Origin: Squalus acanthias
Lineage: Eukaryota
Assembly: GCA_030390025.1 (NCBI GenBank)
Contig: CM059445.1
Span: forward strand, 43,400,001-43,464,000
Length of the DNA stretch: 64,000 nt
Reading direction: 5' to 3'
The notes under the pieces were generated by a model. The model made no database searches and was not told the DNA's origin. It saw only the letters and a list, made by a program, of their open reading frames with translations. Shown here piece by piece: positions 50,973-64,000 of this stretch. The position numbers and the translations under genes are program-made. How positions within the stretch are numbered: position 1 is the stretch's first letter; each line of letters opens with the position of its first letter.

Positions 50973-51411
50973 TGTGGAAGTGCAGTTTTTGTCTCGGACA
51001 AAATGGTGTCCTTGAATTTAAACTAATAAAATGGCCGACTCTGACTTGTGTGGAAAAGGAAAAAAATCCATTGTTATGTTCTTTTCTGAAAATAACTTTA
51101 AATTCTTAGACTATGCTGTCAGCAAAAGACTGCCTGCACAAAAGAAAACAGGCTTAATATTGAGATAACCAAGCGCTAGTAAAGTAAACAAACCAGGCGC
51201 CTTGACCTTGGTGAGAGAAGTAAAATAGATAGACTCCATTTTATAGAGATTAGCTAGTCTCATTGTAAGGCATTTCTAATGTGTTTTTTCTAGTTGTTAA
51301 CTTAGCTTACCTTAAACAACATGTCATGTGATATTATACTGTATAAGAATACTCCATTTTCTGTGATTCAGCAGTCTGTCATCATAGCTAATTGGGCTAT
51401 GGTTGCAGTCT
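50973..51411 (+). repeat. ERV 5' LTR (439 bp; last 81 bp deleted, including AATAAA and U5)
   Basis: Matches 53621-54059 with one substitution seen (aagCgctag vs aagGgctag); TATA-like 'gtataag' at about 51341. Confidence 0.95.
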
Positions 51412-52054
51412 ACCAAGATTTGGAATACCTATGCAACTTTCATGCGACAACGGATCACATTTTACTGGAATGATCATAAAGGAACTATGTAAGGCTTTGC
51501 AGATTAATCAGCATTTCCACTGCAGTTATCATCCGCAATCCGCGGGACTAGTAGAAAGATATAACGGAATGCTGAAGAATAAACTTTCTAAACTTTGCAA
51601 TGAAACTGGACTAAAATGGGTTGAACTGTTACCCTTAGCATTGATGGTAATGCGAGCAGCAACTAACAGGACAACTGGACTGTCGCCACATGAGATTGTT
51701 ATGGGACGGCCCCAAAGGCTGCCATTCTCAGCACCCTTTACGGTTAAACAAATGGACATTCATAAAATGGATGAAAGTATGCTTAACTATTGCATTGCAT
51801 TAACTAGATGTATTTCCAGCTTTCACCAACAGGTAAAGGAAGCTCAAACGGAACCGGCTGAAGGAAAGTGCCATAACTTGGAACCAGGAGATGACGTCTA
51901 CGTAAAGGTCTTTAAGAGGAAGAACGGTCTGCAGCCACGCTTTGAAGGGCCATATCAAGTACTCTTGACAACAAATACAGCTGTAAAGGTCAAGGAAAGA
52001 CCTACTTGGATCCACGCAGCCCATTGCAAGAAAGTATCAGATAAGGACAGTTGA
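51412..52054 (+). pseudogene. pol: ERV integrase, C-terminal two-thirds (open frame, N-terminus deleted)
   Basis: [29 protein letters not shown] and [10 protein letters not shown]...WIHAAHCK. The HHCC finger and first catalytic Asp are missing. Confidence 0.92.
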
Positions 52055-52079
52055 ATTTGAATTTGAAAAGACTTAAACA

Positions 52080-52787
52080 ATGAAGCTGTTATTTACGTTT
52101 TACCTACTAATCGGACTGATATGTATAGCCTGCCAAGGGAGAGGAAAAGAACCCCGAAAGAAACGAGAATTACATATGAACACCTTTTTGTATATGTCAT
52201 ATAAGTATGCCAAAAAAAGTGGGATAAACGCCTGTTGGGTATGTAGCCATATTCCTACTTATGTGAAAAGAGGAATACCTCTGCGACCGATACCCTTGAA
52301 CCTCACAGATATGGCAGAATGGATAATTAATAAAAATCATACGAAACAGAAAGATACCGCCCTATCCACCTTCGGAAAAATATGGGAACAAAAGTGGTCT
52401 AGCCTAAGAAACGAGTTTAAGGGGGGAGGATATTCGTTAGAAAATTTTAAAGGATGGTACAAGCCGACGTATGATTATACGAAAGAACCTCCTTTTCTAG
52501 CCCTTACCAATACATCGGGAAAGGGCCGACCAATCGGGGATATATGCTGGGAACGCGATCTAGGACAGACTAAAGGGAACAGAGTTAATATGGGGAAAAG
52601 TCGTTGCATACAAAAGTTTATTACGTACAAGGCAGGAAGTTCCATGGAAAGCTGGTGGTTCAATACTACCATTTTGATGAATTTGACTAATAACAGACCA
52701 TGGAATGGGACTAAACGATTGAATACTGACAATCAGATGGGTTTTACCGTTTTCCGCACCAACGTGAACCCTGATCGAGGTGTTTAA
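52080..52787 (+). CDS. env: Truncated ERV envelope (signal peptide plus N-terminal SU, no TM), 235 aa
   Basis: ATG 26 nt after the pol stop; hydrophobic leader MKLLFTFYLLIGLICIAC; RKKR; CWVC (CxxC) motif; sequons NLT, NTS, NTT and NGT; no fusion peptide, CX6CC or TM. Expression unknown. Confidence 0.7.
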   Translation: MKLLFTFYLLIGLICIACQGRGKEPRKKRELHMNTFLYMSYKYAKKSGINACWVCSHIPTYVKRGIPLRPIPLNLTDMAEWIINKNHTKQKDTALSTFGKIWEQKWSSLRNEFKGGGYSLENFKGWYKPTYDYTKEPPFLALTNTSGKGRPIGDICWERDLGQTKGNRVNMGKSRCIQKFITYKAGSSMESWWFNTTILMNLTNNRPWNGTKRLNTDNQMGFTVFRTNVNPDRGV

Positions 52788-53132
52788 GATGATTAAAAGA
52801 TTTGATAGGTTAGGCAAGGTAGTCATACCTGAAGTAAGTATAATGATACAGAAAGAAATAAATAACGAAGAAGAAAAGTATGGTCCCTTCGGGGAGGAAC
52901 TGAGGCGATTGAATAACATACAATTTTGAGGATTAGACAATCTAGACAAAATATACATATAGATATATATATACATTTTTGCATGCTCCCCACTTTCGGT
53001 AAACATTCTTCCACCCACATGGGATCTGCAGGCTAGGGAAAGAGAGAGGACTCCTTTCAACTGCCGGTGACGTCGACCTTGTATATCACTTGGTCCGCAC
53101 TCTGGAGGCTCACGTAAAAGCACTTGTGCTTC

Positions 53133-53278
53133 GGAGAACCCCACAGGTCAGGTATAAACTGTGTGGGTCATGAATCAGTCCTCCTCTATAAGCTGCAGTT
53201 CCCTAGGAGAACCCCACAGGTTAGGCATAAACTGTGTGGGCCATGACTTAGAACTCCTCTATGAGCTGCTGTACCCTA
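53133..53278 (+). repeat. Two-copy 73-bp direct repeat in the ERV 3' untranslated region
   Basis: 'ggagaaccccacaggt.agg.ataaactgtgtggg.catga' at 53133 and 53206. Confidence 0.9.
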
Positions 53279-53620
53279 TCTCCTTAGAGGGTGTATAGCG
53301 ACACCTGAACTGCAGGCTAGTAAAAGCTGCAGGAAAAGTTAGAGAACAGCAGACTAATGAACCACAAAAGTACGCCACAGTCACCAAAACACAACTAAAA
53401 CCCCTACAAGAACATACGCCCAAACACCGAGACTAGACAGAGAAGAAGGACGATCTTAAATAAGGTCAGCCATCAATACAGGTATAATCCCGAGGATGGT
53501 TAAAACAGAAAAGAAGTTGGCATCCCTGACCAAAATCCAAATTTGGTACAGGAACCGACAAGAAAGACCGAAAAAGTTAAATTGAGCTATTTTGTCCTAG
53601 AAGGACAAAAAAGGGGGGAA

Positions 53621-54140: not shown

Positions 54141-55520
54141 GCGTGGGAGGTGGTAAAATCGCAAAAAATGGCGGGCGGGCCCGATCCCACCTCCATGCAA
54201 TTTTCCCAAATGCGTGTTTTCTGACTCTGTTTCCATCCCGCCTCCAAGAGGCAGGATAGACCCTTAACCAGTTAAGTGCCTCTATAATTCCATTTTGACA
54301 GGCCCTCCTCCTGTCCTTGCTCTTTCCCTCTTATTGTGGGCTCTCTTTTCCTGCTATGAGGGACACAAGTGGAGTTTGAGTGAGAATGAAGGAGTGAGTG
54401 TAGAGAATCCATAGCATAGATGCTTAGGAGACAAAGGGCCCTCCCTGTGTGTTGTAAGTTGTTGTCATTGCGTCACAGTGATAGGGAGTGTGAGGGCTGC
54501 ATGGTCGAATAGTTAAGTGAATGTGACCATAGAGAGAGGGAATGGGTAAGGGTGCAGGGATGTCAGTGTCAAGTGGGATGTGGAGGAAGAGGTTGGCAAA
54601 GCTGAGTGCTGGTGAGGAGAGGCGATGGGGATCAGATTGAGGGTGATGAGAAAGTCATACTCACTTTTCCTGTGCGGAGGTGGTCATGAAACCTCTTCCT
54701 GCACTGCAGCCAGGTTCTGCGGCACATAGAGAGGGCATTGACCTCCTGGGCCACTTGCAGCCACACAGCTTTAGTCTGTTGTGGTAGCTTTTTTCTCCGA
54801 GGAAGGGAAGAGCACCTCCTTATTAGATCTTGCTCCCTGCACCAGAGCTTGGAGGGAGGGCTCATCAAAGCGAGGTGCACACTTTTGCTTGCTGGTGGAC
54901 ATGGTCGGTAAATGAAGTCCTTCATACAATGTCCAAAGCGTTTCCAGTCTCCAGAGGAATCAAGGCTGCTTGCAGGCCTTAACTCCAACAGCACTGATGA
55001 GGTCATCGGAGGCGACTTTCTGTATGAAAAGACTCATTGGGTCAGTGGTTCCCACACGCAGGAAATCAATTGCCCAATTAGGGGAAAATCCCACTTTTTC
55101 AACACATCACTTGGGAGTTGGGGTCCTGACACGATTTCCACCTGACACGCCCCTGCCCGCCCACACTGACAAAATTCAGCCCTAACAGTCTGATTATTCC
55201 TTTCCTTGCAATATGCAAAGATACCTTTGAAGGACATTTTGTAAATATATTTCCATACCATCCACACCTAGTGACGTAAGAAAACTACTAGGCACTTGGT
55301 CTAAGTGTTAAACAAAGCTTTAATCAACTGGTTTTCAACATGGAGGTCTAGTTGTGTCCTTCACTAGTTCCTGTCGAGGAATGTCCTAAGCAAGCTGGGC
55401 TCATGCCCGAGTATTTATACTCTCCCTGGACAGCGCCACCAGCAGGCCACCCAGTATTACTTCATACAAGATTCATGTCATTCTTCCCGCCTGAAAGATT
55501 GGAAGTCCGGTGGCTTCTTT

Positions 55521-57914
55521 CTACCGAATTAGCCGGACTAAGAATAGACGCAGTCGTTTGTATTTCCGTTGGAGGCTGGAGGGCACGTCTCCTCGGACTG
55601 TGTTTTGGTCCCTGGGTCGCTTGGTTCGTACCGGCAGGCTGGCAGAGTCCGTGTCGCCTCGATCGACCTGAGAGGGACTGGGGAGATCATGGCTCCAGGT
55701 GCGAGTCCCCACTGGCGCAGAGCTGGCTTCATCCTGTTCAGTAGCCGGTGATTGACCGGCGTCCTGGCTTCGGGTGGCCATCCCGCGGGGAGCGCTCTGT
55801 TCCCAGAGTTGATCCAGCGGAGTAGCTGGCAGATCCCTCGATGTCCCGGGTAGGGAGTCATCCTCGGAGGAGCACGGAGTATCGGCGTCGTTAATACAGA
55901 TCTCTCTATCGATTGGGTCCGTGGGACCGGTTGGGCAGGGAGCCAGATCCCGAAGTGAAACTGTGGACTCCCGGCCATCAGGGTACCGCACGTACGCGTA
56001 TGTAGGATTGACATCCGTTAGTTCCACCTCGTCGACGAGCGGATCACTCTTGGAAGATCGGACGAATCTTCGGAGCAGCATGGAGCCAGGAGCTGCCAAC
56101 CATGATGGTAGGGACGTCCCATGAGTGGAGCGACGCTGGAACCCGAAGAATCGTTCGTGAGGAGTAACATTGGTAGATGTAGAAAGAGACCTGATGGAAT
56201 GCAACGCGTCAGGGAGCATAATTTCCCACTGCTGGTCTGGTAGATTGCGTGACCTCAGTGCAAGACGAACAGCGTTCCAAATGAAAGCGTTGGATCTCTC
56301 AACCTGTCCGTTTCCAATAGGATGATATGGTGTCGTTTTACTTGTGGCGATTCCCCGTTGGGAAAGATAACTTTTGAGTTCGCTTGACATGAAGGAGGGA
56401 CTCCGATCAGAGTGGATGAAATTGGCCGTACCGCAAAGGGAAAAGACCTGATCGAGGCATTTGATCACTGTGGAAGTAAGCATATTGGGACAGGGGAAAG
56501 CGTGAATATTCGTCCACCATAGTAAGCAAGTAGGTGTTTCGCGTTGAGGAAGGCAATGGCCCTTTAAAGTCAATGTTGAGTCGCTACATAGGATGTGTAG
56601 CGTGTATGAGTGAGCCATCTGACGGACGGAAGAATTGCAGTTTTAATTCCGCGCAAGTGGAGCATGTTCTTTTCACGTCTTCTGTCGAAAATGGGAGATT
56701 TTTAGATCGCACAAAGTGCAACAGACGGGTAACGCCCAGATAGTATAAGTCAGTATGAAGATCCGCAAGAGTCGAAGTTGACATGGAAGAGCAGAATGCA
56801 CGCGTAAGGGTATCCGGGGCCACATTCTCCTTGCCGGGTCGATACTATATGGTGTAGCCAAAGGTGGCCAATTCCATCCTCCAGAGCTGTATTTTGTTAT
56901 TCTTGATTTTAGTGCGTTTCCGGTTATCCAGCATAAAGGCCACCGAGCGCTGATCGGTTATGAGCGTGAAATGGCGACGAGCGAGAAAATGACTCCATTT
57001 ACGTACTGCTTCGATGATAGCCGTAGCCTCCTTCTCGACAGGAGGATAATGAAGCTCGCTACCCTGCAAAGTTCTAGACAGAAATGCAACGGGTCGACCG
57101 CCTTGATTCAAGGTAGCCGAGATCGCCACCTCCGATGCATCGCACTTGACCACGAAAGGGAGATTTTCATCGATGGAATGAAGCGCGGCTTTTTCCAGTT
57201 GTTGCTCGAGGAGGTTGAAAGCTGAAATAGCCCTCACTTCGCGCGAAGCAGGGGCTGGATCTTGTCGGAAAAGTGAGGTATCCACTTCGCATAATAGGCG
57301 AACATGCCGAGGGCCCGACGAAGAGAGCTGAGATTCGTAGGAGGAGGGAGCTCCTGAAGCAGACGAAGTCGCTCCGGATCCGGTTTGATGACACCATTGC
57401 CCACCCAGTAGCCAAGGATGTTGACTGATGGTACTGATTTCACAGATTTGGACTCATTTAAGGTTAAGTTGCGACGACGGAGAACGTCAAGAAATTTCTG
57501 GAGGTTGGCATCATGCTCCTTCTGGTGATATTATCCAGATATGGAAAAGTGTCTGTTAAGTTCTCCTGTTTGACTAGGCTATCCATTGCCCATTGAAAGA
57601 CGGCCACCCCATTGGTGACTCCGAATGGAAGGCGACGAAACTGGTAAAGCCGACCATTGGCCTCAAAAACCGTATACTTTTTATCAGAGTCCTTGAACGG
57701 TACTTGATGGTATGCGCTCTTTAAGTCAAAAGTTGAAAATACCTTGTAGTTAGCAAGGTTATTGACCATGTCATCGATGCGTGGTATTGGGTAGGCATCC
57801 AGGTCGGTATGCTGGTTAATAGTTTGCGAGTAATCGATGCAAAGACGTTTCTTGTGCAGCTTCAGAGGATTTTTAACAACGACGACTTGAGCCCACCAGG
57901 AAGATGAACATGGC
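55521..57914 (-). pseudogene. pol: Gypsy RT-RNase H-integrase, frameshifted
   Basis: FDLKSAYHQV, RLPFGVTNG and FPYLDN (RT); CDASEVAI, EKEA and ITDQRS (RNase H); IHSDR and TPYHPIGNGQVERSN (integrase). Confidence 0.92.
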
Positions 57915-59383
57915 TCAAATGATACCGTCAGCTAGAAGGCGAGAGATCTCTGCCTCGATAAAGGATAGGTCATCTTGGCTGAAACGTCGTGATTTAGTGG
58001 CTATGGGCTTACATCGGGGAGAAAGATTGGCAAACAAGGAGGGCTCGTCGAGTGAAGCCGCCGAAAGTGCACAAAACGGTACTTTGGAAATAGTAAGCTC
58101 CGGCTTTGATCCTCCAAACTCGAAAGTGAGTCTTTTGTGTTGTTTCTGGAAATCCTGTCCCAGAAGCACATCACTGCATAGGTTTTTGAGCACCCCGAGC
58201 CGGGTGGAGAAATAAGTGTGGCCATTGAGAATAAGGTCGACAAGACAAAAGCCGGAAGAGTTAGTGGTCAGTGTCGTCCGAGCCATTGCAATTTCCCTGT
58301 CCGAGGGGTAAATACGCAGTTTTAACTTACTGACAGCCTGCTCACTGATGAAACTGTCAAAGCTGCATGAGTCGAGTAATGCACTCAAAATGTGTCCATT
58401 TACCGAAACCTTCGTGGCTGCATGGGACAGGCTTTGGGGGAAAACAGCTGTGATGGGAGGAGGGGCAGTTTTATCCTGGACAGCTGTAACATTAGTAGTG
58501 GCTCTTGGGGGAGCAGCAGTTTTATAGATGACAGCTATAACATTAGTAGTAGCTCTTGGGGGAGGAGCAGTTTTATAGGGAGCAGCTGTAACCCTAGAAG
58601 AGGCTCTTGACGGACATACTTTCGAGAAGTGACCTTTCTTACTGCAATGATTGCAGATTGCATTACGAGCAGGACAAAATTTCCTATAATGAAATGCACC
58701 TTCACAGAAGAAACACTTCCTTTTAGATTGCCAAGATGCCGCTAGGGTAGGGTCGTCATCAGCTAGGATAGAGTCGTCATCAGTGAGGGCTTCCGCCTGA
58801 GGCTTATCGGAGGAGTCACTAAAAGTGATAGCAGCAGTCCGTGCACATGGTAAAAGATAGGCATCTGCATTTTTTTTTTGCCAAGTCCAGAGAATATGCC
58901 TGGTCATAGGCAGCTTGTAACTCGAGGGTTTTATTCTCCAGCAGACGCTGGCGTATGAAGGGAGACGCAATTCCATTAATAAAAGAATCACAAATTAACT
59001 CCTCCTGGTACTGCTCAGCTGAGACAGCCTTGAGATTACAATCTTTGCTGAGCCTGCGAAGCTTTTGAAGGAATTCGTCAAGTGATACCCCGGGTTGTTG
59101 TCGAGTTGTGGCCAGTAGATACCGAGCAAAAATTTTGTTTGGGGCCTTAACATATAGTTGCTGTAGTATTCAGATAGCGGAGTCATAGTTTACACAGTCT
59201 TCGATATAGTCAAACACATAAAGGGGATACATAATTGGCAAGTATCTCTAACTTATCAGGAACATTCTCACCACACGCCCTGAGGTAGTTGCTGAAGGTA
59301 CGATACCAGTGTTTCCATACCTTAGCAGTTGTAGGTGAATTCGGGTCCAAGTCAAGACGAGTGGGTCGGAGTAGTTTCTCCAT
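57915..59383 (-). pseudogene. gag: Gypsy gag-protease, frameshifted
   Basis: Starts MEKLLRPTRLDLDPNSPTTAKVWKHW; Cys/His knuckles CFFCEGAFHYRKFC and CNHCSKKGHFSKVC; protease ALLDSCS. Confidence 0.9.
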
Positions 59384-59959
59384 GATGGATTGATTACTAT
59401 ATCTGGTTCCCTTCAACCGTTTGAGTCGAAGCCGTCTGTTCCCAAAACTACTCAGAGCGTGGAGCAGGTTCAGTTGATTAAATTGACGTAAGAAAACTAC
59501 TAGGCACTTGGTCTAAGTGTTAAACAAAGCTTTAAATCAACTGGTTTTCAACATGGAGATCTAGTTGTGTCCTTCACTAGTTCCTGTCGAGGAATGTCCT
59601 AAGCAAGCTGGGCTCATGCCCGAGTATTTATACTCTCCCTGGACAGCGCCACCAGCAGGCCGCCCAGTATTACTTCATACAAGATTCATGTCACCTAGGA
59701 TCTAGTTTACTACCTAAAATGGCACGTTATATGTGAAAGCCTAATGGGTACAACTAGACAGCCACACCAAAAATATGAGTGCACAGTGAACTGGGCTAGC
59801 AGATTAAAGCATAGTTATCTTACTACAGGTTTTAAAAATAGTGCTGTTAAATCCATAAAGATTTACTTTGTGCATACAGGAAGATCAATCTAATAAAGCC
59901 CTGAAACATCTTGATTGCCATATAGTCATGATGCTTCAATTTAAACTGAAAGAGAAGAA

Positions 59960-60857
59960 CCAACATAGCACTTGATCACATGATGCCCTGATTAGTTTAC
60001 AATCATTTAATACTTTTGAAGTGGAGTCACTGATGCTATCTAGACAAATGCAATAGCTAATTTGCACAGAGCAAGATCTCACAAACAGCAAATAAATAAA
60101 TGACCAGATAATCTGTTTTTGGTCGTGTTGGTTGAGGGATGAAGATCGGCCAGGACACCAGGCAAACGACCTACTCTTTTTCAAATAGTGCCATCGCATC
60201 TTTAATATCCAGTTGAACTGCTGGAACAGATATAATGGGCTCGATTTTGCCATTGGGGACGGGCTGCGGGCGTGTCAGGTGGTCGTCGTGTCAGGATCCC
60301 AACTCTGATGTGAAGTAGGACAAAAGTGCGATTTTGCCCTAATTGGGCACTTGGTTTCCAGTGTGTGGGAACCCCTGGCCCAATGAGCTTTTTCCATACA
60401 GAAAGTCACCTCCGATGACGTCATCAATGCTGCTGGATTTAAGGCCTGCAAGCAGCCTTGCTTCTTTTTCAGCCTTTAAACTTTATGCCCATTGTTCTGA
60501 GCGCTTCCTTCAGCAATTATATCCACCAGTAGACCAAAGTGTGCTCCAAGATTCGGAATCAGAAAGGCCTCTCAAAATAGGATTATAAAGACAATTAACT
60601 GGTTGTTAAGGGTCTTAAGGGCCTATCCCGCCTCTTGGAGGTGGGATGGAAACGGGGTCTGAAACGATGAATGTGGGAAAATTGCTCAGAGGCGGGATCG
60701 GACCCACCCGCCATTTTTTTGCGATTTTGTCAACTCACATGCCTCCAAATCCACCTCCTCGGGCCTGGTAAAATCGAGCCCAATGTCTCATATGAAAGAT
60801 GGTACTTCCAGCAATGCAGCACTCCATCAGTACTGCACTGGTGTCAGCCTGGAGTGA
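59960..60857 (-). mobile_element. Deu-type SINE split by a MITE insertion
   Basis: 'tacttttgaagtggagtcactg...ggccaggacaccagg' on the left and 'gtctcatatgaaagatggtacttcc...cagtactgcactgg' on the right of the insert. Confidence 0.75.
60237..60781 (+). mobile_element. Harbinger family E, short MITE derivative
   Basis: Perfect 12-bp TIRs gggctcgatttt / aaaatcgagccc; TSD AAT; both arms homologous to 50930-55182 in the opposite orientation. Confidence 0.9.
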
Positions 60858-61334: not shown

Positions 61335-64000
61335 AACCATAAGAACACAAGAAATAGGAGCAGGAATGGCCATTTGACCCCTCGAGTCTGCTCTGCCATT
61401 CAATAAGATCATGGCTGATCTTCTCCCTCAATTCCACTTTCCTGCCCTATCCCCATATCACTTGATTCCCTTAATATCCAAAAATCTATCGCTCTCTGTC
61501 TTGAATATACTCAACGACTGAGCCTCCACAGCCCTCTGGGGTAGAGAATTCCAAAGATTCACCACCATCTGAGTGAAGAAATTTCTCCTCAACTCAGTCC
61601 TAAATGGCCGACCTCTTATTCTGAAACTGTGACCACTGGTTCTAGACTCCCCAGCCAGGGGAAACATCCTCCCTGCATCTACCCTGTCAAGCCCTGTAAG
61701 AATTTTGTATGTTTCAATAAGATCACCTCTCATTCTTCTAAACTTCAGAGAATCTAGGCCTAGTCTACTCAATCTCTCCTCATAGGACAATCCCCCCATC
61801 CCAGGAATCAGTCTGGTGAATCTTCGTTGCACTCCCTCTATGACAAGTTTATCCTTCCTTAGGTAAGGAGACCAAAACTGTACACAATACTCCAGGTGTG
61901 GTTTCACCAGGGCCCTACATAACTGCAGTAAGACGTCTTTACTCTTATACTCAAATCCTCTTGTAATAAAGGCTAACATACATTTGCTTTCCTAATTGCT
62001 TGCTGTACCTGCATGTTAGCTTTCAGTGATTCGTGTACAAGGACACCCAGGTCCCTCTGAACACCAACATTTCCCAATTTCTCACCATTTAAAAAATACT
62101 CTGCTTTTCTATTTTTCCTACCAAAGTGGATAACTTCACATTTCTCCACATTATATTCTATTTGCCATGTTCTTGCCCACTCACTTAGCCTGTCTATATC
62201 CCCTTGAAGTCTCTTTGCATCCCCTCACAACTTACATTCCCACCTAGCTTTGTATCATCAGCAAACTTGGATATACGACATTTGGCCCCCTCATCCAAAT
62301 CATTGATATAGATTATGAATAGCTGAGGCCCAAGCACTGATCCTTGCGGTACCCCACTAGTTAAAGCCTGCCAACCCGAAAATGACCCATTTATTCCTAC
62401 TCTCTGTTTTCTGTCCGTTAACCAATCCTCAATCCATGCGAGTATATTACCCCCAATGCCATGAGCCCTAATTTTGTTTAATAACCTCTTGTGTGGCACC
62501 TTATCGAATGTCTCCTGAAAATCTAAATACAGCACATGCACTGATTCCCCATATCTATTCTGCTAGTTACAACCTCAAAAAACTCTACCAGATTCATCAA
62601 ACACTATTTCTCTTTCATAAATCATTGTTGATTCTGCCTAATCCTATTATTATTTTCTAAGTGCCCTGTTACCACGTCCTTAATAATAGATTCTAGCATT
62701 TTCCCTACTACTGATGTCAGGGAAGATGACAACCAATGCATCCACTATCTCTATAGCCACTTCTTTTAAAACGCTAGGATGTAGGCCTTTCAGTTCCTCA
62801 TTCTCGCTAGAGCCTTGGTTGTCCACTATTTCCGGGAGATTTTTTGCATCTTCTTCCGGGAAGACAGACACAAAGGGCGTGATCTTGCCAGCCCTGGGGA
62901 GGCGGGTCTGCAGGGAAAATGGCAGAATCTGGGGGCGGGTGCCCAACCCGCCCCCGTGCCATCTTGCCAGGTGGCGGGTAGCCAACCCGCGCCGGGTCCC
63001 ATCTCCTTGGAGGCGGGAAGGGGATTAGTGCCACTTATCTGCCTGTTAACCGGTAGTTAACAGGCAGATAAGGGGATTATCCCCATTTTACCCACACAAG
63101 TGCGGGCTTCCCGAAGGCTCCGAACCCCGCCAGGGTCACCGAGGCGAGCAGTGGCTCTGCGGGGGTTGGAGGGGTGCAAAAGTGCGCTGTGAAGGTAAGT
63201 GATGGGTGCAAGTGTGGAGAGGTGAGTATGTGAGGTAAGTGGAAAGTGTTAGTAAAAGTTTACTTACCTTTGTTACTTCCTGCAGGCTTCAATCGGTGGG
63301 TATGCGGAGAGTCTCGCACCTCCGCGGCAGAGATGACAGATGGCCATTGCATTCTCCAATGCAACAAACATCTAATTTCTGCTAAATAAAGCAGTTTGAT
63401 GAGTCTTGAATTCAATAACTCATCAAACTACAGAGAATGTCTTTAATTTCTCGTTAGCCACGGTTGGACCATTCTTCCCGTGGTGTCTTTATTCCTTCAG
63501 GGAATGTATATTCGTTGCGAATTATGATTTATTTCTTTAAATGTTTGCCATTGCCTTTCTACTGTCATATCTTTTAATCTAGTTTCCCAACCTACCTTAG
63601 CCAACTCGCCTCTCATACCTATGTAGTTTGCTTTGTTCAGGTTTAGGACCCTAGTTTCGGACTTAACTAAATCACTCTCAAACTCAACATAAAATTCACT
63701 GCTCCCCAGAGGCTCCTTTACTACAAGGTTATTAATTAACCCTGTCTCATTGCACAGTACTAGATCTAAAATAGCCAATTCCCTCGTAGCTTCCTTGACA
63801 TACTGATCTAGAAAACTATCTTGAACGCATTCCAAGAACTCTTCCTCTGCACTATTTCTGCAAACTTGGTTTGCCCAGTCTATATTAAAGTTAAAGTCCC
63901 CCATGATTACTCTATTGCCCTCATTACATGCATCTCTAATTTCCTGATTTATACTCTGCCCGACACTACAACCACTGTTAGGGAGCCTATTGATTACTCC
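61335..64000 (-). mobile_element. Long degenerate CR1 (endonuclease end, RT, 3' UTR), continuing past the window end, with deletions and a MITE insert
   Basis: ORFs 63497..63904 (MGDFN, LDLVLCN), 62194..62541 (SGVPQGS, FADD) and 61458..61979; 3' UTR at 61335-61457. Confidence 0.92.
62875..63441 (+). mobile_element. MITE family C, copy 3 (right end lost) inside CR1
   Basis: Starts gggcgtgatcttgccagccctggggaggc; colinear with 25366 and 31766 up to 'cagagaatgtc'. Confidence 0.85.

What the first reader, a model, noticed from the sequence alone, without database searches (positions are those of the whole stretch)
59461..59545. Gypsy element with an LTR-complementary sequence in place of a tRNA PBS, covering its own poly(A) signal
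Seen: on the element strand the 5' LTR is followed by ATTTAATCAACTG rather than TGG... The 12-mer TTTAATCAACTG is the exact reverse complement of CAGTTGATTAAA in the LTR (perfect in the 3' LTR at about 55319-55330; the 5' LTR has a 1-nt insertion). That target contains the likely poly(A) signal ATTAAA. Known: Tf1/sushi-type elements self-prime by pairing the PBS with the first bases of the transcript. Inference: here the target lies roughly 80 nt downstream of the TATA-like TATAAATA, so probably not at the transcript 5' end. One fold-back might both prime reverse transcription and mask the poly(A) signal only in the 5' LTR, which would be a different mechanism from Tf1.
Basis: partly seen in the sequence, partly recalled or inferred. 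Interest (0 to 1): 0.72.

Follow-up and report, generated by a model that had tools for sequence, protein, structure and literature searches.

The report
Self-priming Gypsy lineage outside chromoviruses
This broken jumping gene, hundreds of copies in the same genome and about twenty related families from other sources carry, where a host tRNA normally docks, a short stretch that pairs with the element's own end-repeat, usually across a likely poly(A) signal, so the group most likely starts copying itself with its own RNA.

Summary
Observation confirmed. A decayed 4.4-kb Gypsy element (minus strand, 210/209-nt LTRs, 5-nt target duplication) has no tRNA site. The 12 bases after LTR+A complement LTR positions 151-162 (0 of 5000 shuffles reach 12). 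At least 926 copies in this genome share the 11-nt core pairing. Across 23 chosen family or subfamily representatives, 293 of 299 positions in the 13-nt core pair despite letter changes (permutations: at least 53 mismatches), so a tRNA primer is very unlikely. The lineage lacks a chromodomain and forms its own RT-RNase H clade, apart from chromoviruses and Mag. Self-priming is inferred (about 0.85), not shown. The paired stretch ends on AATAAA/ATTAAA in 16 of 23, so poly(A) masking is plausible but not universal. Whether the primer is the transcript's 5' end (Tf1-like) or lies inside R is open: a conserved GC box and TATA about 90 nt upstream favour internal here, but the 20 other representatives lack that TATA, and RNA contigs mapped no start or end. 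This scan noted the same clade repeatedly on other DNA. I recall unverified Repbase 'self-primed Gypsy' entries. Verdict: new variant of a known mechanism.

The parts
59484..59693 (-). 5' LTR (210 nt, TG...CA)
59660..59665 (-). GC-box-like GGGCGG, shared by the two main subfamilies of this genome
   Evidence: sequence; function inferred
59625..59632 (-). TATAAATA; a start near 59600 (pyrimidine-A, 32 nt after the first T) is predicted, not mapped
59531..59543 (-). PBS-complementary target in the 5' LTR, with a private 1-nt insertion that also breaks the hexamer
59471..59482 (-). PBS-position 12-mer, complementary to own LTR, after a 1-nt A spacer at 59483
55521..59383 (-). gag-pol (gag with two zinc-knuckle-like motifs seen by eye, then protease, RT, RNase H, integrase), broken into several frames by stops and frameshifts
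55481..55492 (-). polypurine tract next to the 3' LTR
55272..55480 (-). 3' LTR (209 nt)
55319..55330 (-). intact 12-nt target; its last six bases (55324-55319) are the ATTAAA hexamer
59694..59698 (-). target-site duplication CTAGG, upstream copy
55267..55271 (-). target-site duplication CTAGG, downstream copy

Best explanation
The primer site of this Gypsy lineage is complementary to a 12-19-nt stretch of its own LTR, and the element most likely primes reverse transcription with that stretch of its own RNA instead of a tRNA. Shown: the pairing, its covariation across families, a 1-nt spacer, a 23-67-nt loop, and a fixed duplex end at ...TAAA. Inferred by analogy with Tf1: the RNA folds back, RT's RNase H cuts just 3' of the paired stretch, and the new 3' OH is extended into U5/R. 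Plus-strand synthesis would then recopy the PBS from the primer, which would explain easy compensation. In this genome's families I put about 55-60% on the stretch lying inside R, some 57 nt after a TATA-driven start. The same duplex would then hide AUUAAA in the 5' LTR only.
For: Own genome: 926 places match both 11-nt cores. Subfamilies change both arms together: A versus B1 at -12/-13, and B2 at -8 (24 of 41 PBS variants at that position compensated, most of the rest look like CpG decay, my count). Relatives: 27 of 33 gag starts with enough upstream DNA show an inverted repeat of at least 10 nt at this place. In 23 chosen representatives there are 6 mismatches in 299 core positions against a permutation mean of 84 and a minimum of 53 in 50,000; positions -6 to -9, -12 and -13 each show 3-4 Watson-Crick pair types. 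Sister families on the RT-RNase H tree differ in compensated form (L149/L031, L034/L039, L032/L037/L038/L035, L066/L151). Predicted core pair probability is at least 0.88 in 22 of 23. Mag-like elements of the same genome have an ordinary TGG-type site. For an internal target: TATA-to-target spacing is 90-92 nt in all 71 LTR hits that carry both motifs, across both subfamilies, with a pyrimidine-A at the expected start distance in most. Pairing persists past -11 (41 pairs at -14 to -16 against 25.7 expected, 0 of 50,000 permutations). The duplex edge is a pyrimidine-purine step in only 1 of 23 (L152 corrected). A canonical hexamer overlaps the duplex end in 16 of 23, with switches between ATTAAA and AATAAA on separate branches.
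Against: No biochemistry. No start, cut or poly(A) site was mapped. No TATA within 140 nt upstream in 20 of 23 representatives. G at -10 in 22 of 23 with A/T at -11 resembles an initiator that would give an 11-nt primer as in Tf1. A long 5' tail on the primer creates a plus-strand stop problem that I cannot solve from sequence. 7 of 23 have no canonical hexamer in the duplex. The hexamer is also predicted to be largely paired without the PBS in some families (unpaired probability 0.05-0.3 in 8 of 23). The upstream hairpin in this genome's LTRs is not significant (z -0.6 to -1.7). Representatives were chosen for a clear pairing and are related, so the permutation test overstates independence. 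Four of 33 starts (L043, L083 second start, L086, L105) show no clear pairing. Most rare PBS variants are uncompensated: 1 of 20 at positions 5, 7 and 9, and that copy is a recombinant or misassembly.
Confidence: 0.8

Rival explanations
1. Plain Tf1-type self-priming, reached independently: transcription starts at or next to the conserved AG, 11-13 nt before the duplex end, so the primer is the capped 5' end. The hexamer is silent in the 5' LTR simply because it sits next to the cap. This is a variant of the best explanation, not an alternative to self-priming.
For: (A/T)G(T/C) at -11 to -9 in nearly all representatives gives exactly 11 nt, Tf1's primer length (PMC7175516, passage). No TATA in 20 of 23. 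A short primer makes PBS regeneration simple.
Against: Pairing extends upstream of the AG far beyond chance and has no common edge. A GC box, TATA and correctly spaced pyrimidine-A are conserved about 90 nt upstream in both subfamilies here. No Tf1-type third duplex between the loop and the region past the PBS is predicted (at most 0.1 expected pairs in 22 of 23).
Confidence: 0.33
2. The primer comes from the 3' LTR copy of the stretch, on the same or a second packaged RNA, rather than from the 5' end.
For: The 3' end of the RNA carries the whole target plus upstream bases whatever the start site, which would explain pairing beyond -11. An earlier AI note (e1-7857552) claims mutation footprints for this.
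Against: The 5' target is only 23-67 nt from the PBS and folds back with high predicted probability. Cutting the 3' copy would shorten the R sequence needed for strand transfer. L036 has a target change in both LTRs with an unchanged PBS, a single case. My test in 95 family-B copies with both LTRs found no informative new variant.
Confidence: 0.12
3. The duplex exists mainly to hide the 5' poly(A) signal or to aid packaging, and priming uses an unknown host RNA or another route.
For: Canonical hexamer at the duplex end in 16 of 23. Structural occlusion of a 5' signal is discussed for HIV-1 (PMC12789967, passage).
Against: The pairing is kept in the 7 representatives without a hexamer in it. 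It always starts 1 nt after the LTR end, where a primer's 3' end must sit. No other primer site is seen.
Confidence: 0.06
4. A host tRNA or tRNA fragment primes at this site, and the LTR match is a relic or chance.
For: None found.
Against: No TGG start. The PBS differs among families and tracks each family's own LTR. No tRNA or other Rfam family matches the LTR-PBS region beyond one chance hit at E 7. The host tRNA set itself was not compared.
Confidence: 0.02

Closest known systems
Tf1/Tf2 (S. pombe), Tj1, Tosmo1-3 and the Tf1/sushi chromoviruses
   Same: PBS right after the 5' LTR is complementary to a stretch of the element's own LTR; no tRNA; similar duplex length. For Tf1 an 11-nt primer cut by RNase H is described (PMC7175516, PMC10085805, PMC4600332, passages).
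   Different: No chromodomain or SH3_Tf2-1 domain in 29 of 29 full-length relatives. Separate RT-RNase H clade. Duplex 12-19 nt with a ragged upstream edge. It ends on the poly(A) hexamer in most families. No predicted third 'pretzel' duplex. The target may not be the 5' end.
TAR lineage of plant Ty1/copia (Houba, Osr-1) and Tcn1 clade
   Same: Self-priming predicted from PBS/LTR complementarity. TAR is a precedent outside chromoviruses (PMC6317226, passages).
   Different: TAR is another superfamily and Tcn1 is a chromovirus clade; both are in plants. I saw no overlap with the poly(A) signal in the passages read.
HIV-1 5' poly(A) hairpin
   Same: Base pairing proposed to suppress the 5' poly(A) signal (PMC12789967, passage).
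   Different: HIV is tRNA-primed and its hairpin is local to R. Here the masking arm is the PBS, present only behind the 5' LTR.
Repbase 'self-primed' or 'Selfy' Gypsy group of marine invertebrates (recalled, from no call)
   Same: As I recall: non-chromovirus Gypsy families described as lacking a tRNA PBS and pairing with their own LTR.
   Different: Could not be checked. Repbase Reports and the 2019 review I had in mind are not held, and searches found nothing. If the recollection is right, the clade-level observation is already recorded there.
Mag lineage (A/B/C clades, SURL)
   Same: Compact animal Gypsy elements with short LTRs and zinc-knuckle gag.
   Different: Mag-like elements of this genome have TGG-type sites and only 25-34% RT identity, and fall in another clade. 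The label Mag rests on my recall of that PBS motif.

Membership tests
Ty3/Gypsy LTR retrotransposon | TG...CA LTRs, target duplication, PPT, order PR-RT-RH-IN, no env | tested here: met
   best solved relative is Ty3 Gag-Pol; 5-nt duplication intact in 91 of 107 copies
Tf1/sushi chromoviruses | PBS complementary to own LTR, no tRNA site | tested here: met
Tf1/sushi chromoviruses | Chromodomain (and SH3_Tf2-1 region) at the integrase C-terminus | tested here: not met
   0 of 29 full-length relatives at E<=0.01; positive control P0216 has both
Tf1/sushi chromoviruses | RT-RNase H nests within the chromovirus clade | tested here: not met
   quick IQ-TREE, 70 rows: the lineage is a 36-row clade (SH-aLRT 100) apart from a 7-row clade (98) holding the chromodomain/SH3-bearing proteins; no bootstrap, no named Tf1 or sushi sequence in the tree
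Tf1/sushi chromoviruses | Self-primer is the first ~11 nt of the transcript | tested here: inconclusive
   only assembled contigs available; promoter motifs and duplex edges point both ways
Tf1/sushi chromoviruses | Three-duplex 'pretzel' structure | tested here: inconclusive
   prediction only: no loop-to-downstream duplex in 22 of 23; a stem begins within 1 nt of the target end in 16 of 23 against 8.8 expected
Tf1/sushi chromoviruses | RNase H-dependent cleavage makes the primer | not testable with these tools
   needs biochemistry
Mag lineage | tRNA-type PBS and RT within the Mag clade | tested here: not met
   Mag identity of the comparators is recalled from their PBS motif
Named animal Gypsy clades (Cigr-1, Tor2, MolGy1-16) | RT groups with the reference elements | not testable with these tools
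   no reference sequences on hand; PMC6238403 text and four of five supplements give names only, one PDF supplement was unreadable and one was cut

The most novel reading that the evidence does not exclude
An animal Gypsy clade evolved self-priming independently of Tf1, using an internal piece of R. One fold-back of the PBS onto AUUAAA both silences the 5' poly(A) signal during transcription and marks the cut that creates the primer's 3' end, coupling full-length RNA production to primer formation.
Probability: 0.3. Interest if true: 0.75.

Novelty: new variant of a known kind. Interest (0 to 1): 0.55.

Why it matters
Self-priming has been shown in Tf1 and predicted mainly for its chromovirus relatives and one plant copia lineage. 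A separate, widespread animal Gypsy clade with the same logic means tRNA-free priming either arose again or is ancient, which bears on whether hairpin priming preceded tRNA priming (discussed in PMC3601003, passage). Such elements would also offer no tRNA site for tRNA-fragment silencing (inference). If the primer is internal and overlaps the poly(A) signal, it is a compact answer to how an LTR element keeps its 5' signal off, and a new primer-maturation problem for RT. Without that twist it is a Tf1-like mechanism in a new clade, possibly already noted in Repbase.

Tried and rejected
RNA data: no RNA holder was listed on record; only assembled contigs, guessed to be RNA. Two layings showed LTR sequence running into flanks and no poly(A) loose end among the rows shown (35 and 7 rows hidden); contigs cannot show starts or ends. 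Search for retro-copied, poly(A)-tailed LTR transcripts: 9 hits at 5 places, none continuing as LTR sequence. Search for non-ATTAAA-type families in this genome: 20 hits against 4 in the control, none self-complementary by inspection of the printed matches. Primer-source test from mutation footprints: among 95 family-B copies with both LTRs, the only target change shared by both LTRs was subfamily B2's, so uninformative. L182, the one compensated singleton, has mismatched target duplications and LTRs differing at 10 sites; set aside. Splice-acceptor reading of the conserved AG (prompted by e1-7882409 and e1-7811049): rejected because the PBS pairs with unspliced sequence through and beyond the AG, and 4 representatives have TG. 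Cap-templated extra base: the next PBS letter matches the genomic base instead. Conserved hairpin upstream of the target: not significant. Chromovirus comparators from this genome: the SH3_Tf2-1 search gave weak hits, those with a readable RT looking retroviral; dropped. Viral contigs gave one weak hit. One search folded a 3' LTR by a coordinate slip and is not used. L152 was mis-anchored and fixed. For L066 the 3' LTR target was used in the pair counts because its 5' copy is decayed. The careful tree did not finish; the quick tree is reported. Literature: no paper describing this clade's priming was found in nine searches. The primary Tf1 papers and two reviews were not held; Butler 2001 and Repbase Reports were seen only as citations or recalled.

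Full report
1. The observation. The window holds a 4.4-kb Gypsy element on the minus strand. It has LTRs at 59693-59484 and 55480-55272 (2 substitutions and one 1-nt indel apart), a CTAGG target duplication and a polypurine tract. Its gag-pol is broken into several frames with protease, RT, RNase H and integrase hits in Gypsy order. After the 5' LTR come one A and a 12-mer that is the exact reverse complement of LTR positions 151-162. The match is perfect in the 3' LTR and interrupted by a private extra T in the 5' LTR. None of 5000 LTR shuffles reached 12 nt. No tRNA gene and no real Rfam match lie there.

2. The family. The genome (3.7 Gb; probably a cartilaginous fish, a guess from recalled repeat types and earlier notes, not tested) holds at least 926 places with both 11-nt cores. 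All 30 fetched copies of the window's subfamily A share the PBS 12-mer. A younger subfamily B1 (LTR pairs about 99% alike; 45 of 150 listed gag hits in frames of 1300 or more codons, my count) has a 13-nt duplex with both arms changed at -12/-13. Subfamily B2 changes both arms at -8: 24 of the 41 PBS variants at that position are compensated, and most of the rest look like CpG decay. Rare variants at PBS positions 5, 7 and 9 are mostly uncompensated decay: 1 of 20 is compensated, and that copy has mismatched target duplications.

3. The clade. The listed RT relatives are 61-79% identical; the named ones are from crustaceans and cnidarians, with single ORFs of about 1210 residues. Of 80 metagenome and 11 genome-contig loci, 33 gag starts had enough upstream DNA, and 27 show an inverted repeat of 10-19 nt at the same place. 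Of the six others, L066 is perfect in its 3' LTR, L095 is a decayed copy of a pairing family, and four are unresolved. I chose 23 representatives (20 from elsewhere, 3 from this genome). In the 13-nt core they show 6 mismatches in 299 positions, whereas random pairing of LTRs and PBSs gives 84 on average and never under 53. The set was chosen for clear pairing and its members are related, so this is not a clean probability. Still, sister families on the tree differ by compensated changes. The spacer is 1 nt (A in 20 of 23) and the loop 23-67 nt. None of 29 full-length relatives has a chromodomain or SH3_Tf2-1 domain (control). In a quick RT-RNase H tree the lineage is one clade (SH-aLRT 100), apart from chromodomain-bearing proteins and from this genome's TGG-site elements. 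The tree has no bootstrap and no named references, so the clade's published name is unknown.

4. How it likely works. A primer's 3' end must pair with the first PBS base, and every pairing family puts its own LTR's ...TAAA there. By analogy with Tf1, whose first 11 bases pair with the PBS and are cut off by RNase H (PMC7175516, PMC10085805, passages), I infer fold-back, cleavage after the paired stretch, extension, and recopying of the PBS from the primer. A stem often starts right after the presumed cut (16 of 23 against 8.8 expected), but the third Tf1 duplex is not predicted. These steps are inferred; only the pairing is shown.

5. Is the target the 5' end? For an internal target: both subfamilies here keep a GC box, TATAAATA and mostly a pyrimidine-A 32 nt on, with the target 90-92 nt after the TATA in 71 of 71 hits carrying both motifs. 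Pairing continues to about -16, well above chance. The duplex edge looks like a start site in 1 of 23. Against: the other 20 representatives have no TATA within 140 nt, a near-invariant (A/T)G(T/C) at -11 to -9 would give an 11-nt primer, and a long primer tail raises a plus-strand stop problem. I put about 55-60% on internal for this genome's families. A 3' LTR-derived primer, raised by an earlier AI note, could not be tested: 95 copies gave no informative variant.

6. Poly(A) masking. A canonical hexamer overlaps the duplex end in 16 of 23, with AATAAA appearing on separate branches. Seven lack it, and two of those have one downstream, outside the duplex. Predicted unpaired probability of these six bases is at most 0.12 with the PBS in 21 of 23, and 0.05-0.93 without it (0.77 for subfamily A). 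So masking is plausible here but is not the clade-wide reason for the duplex. Its use as a signal is unmapped.

7. Literature. I read passages of PMC3601003, PMC6317226, PMC4600332, PMC5341516, PMC10085805, PMC7175516, PMC6238403 (plus a supplement search), PMC3670739 and PMC12789967; a term search of PMC12440569 gave nothing relevant. They tie Gypsy self-priming to Tf1/sushi and Tcn1 chromoviruses, and predict it for TAR copia. Nine searches found no description of this clade's priming. The library lacks the primary Tf1 papers I asked for and Repbase Reports, where I recall self-primed Gypsy entries from marine invertebrates; that recollection is unverified and could make the clade-level point known. 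Supplements I could not read may bear on the clade name. This scan's own notes list the same signature many times (62 findings in at least 11 genomes; more in this genome); they are AI notes and not support.

8. Verdict. Real, clade-wide and not a chromovirus. It works like Tf1 in all likelihood but is not a member of that group. New variant of a known kind; interest 0.55. The internal-primer and poly(A)-masking version has probability about 0.3 and would deserve about 0.75.

Noticed in passing
window 51392-53300: Integrase-like ORF followed by an env-like ORF and repeats; looks like an endogenous retrovirus fragment (label from recall).
   Followed up: no
window 54141-55152 and 60268-60742: Long inverted repeats (76-84% complementary) flank the Gypsy insertion, probably two opposed copies of a host repeat.
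   Followed up: no
window 54632-55033 (-): 133-codon frame with a motif recalling a Myb/SANT-like domain of Harbinger transposons (recalled, untested).
   Followed up: no
window 58456-58608 and 58741-58782: Three 51-nt and two 21-nt tandem copies inside gag, lengthening the linker regions in frame.
   Followed up: no
window 61458-62562 (-): Fragments resembling a CR1/L2-type LINE reverse transcriptase (recalled).
   Followed up: no
L033, LTR and leader: An 18-nt direct repeat is shared between the upstream LTR and the bases overlapping and following the PBS; unexplained.
   Followed up: no
L086, upstream of gag: Divergent member with a possible, different LTR-complementary site lacking the TTAAA end; may mark the edge of the motif.
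   Followed up: partly
L182 (G000:C3218:42600-48300): Copy with a compensated change in the 5' LTR and PBS only, mismatched target duplications and LTRs 10 sites apart: recombinant or misassembly.
   Followed up: yes
L148 (G000:C22:62388600-62394600): Copy inserted in a tandem satellite; its spacer base is C, which extends the pairing by one base toward the LTR.
   Followed up: partly
L151-L161: Animal-type retrotransposons sit in contigs of bacterial metagenome-assembled genomes, most likely host contamination.
   Followed up: no
window 59484-59693, runs X1, X2, X5, X8: LTR sequence is far deeper than internal sequence in contigs guessed to be RNA and runs into unrelated flanks, as expected from solo LTRs inside host transcripts.
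   Followed up: partly
L149 versus L031: This genome's family is sister to a metagenome element on short branches, and RT identity to invertebrate proteins exceeds 70%, which hints at horizontal transfer.
   Followed up: no
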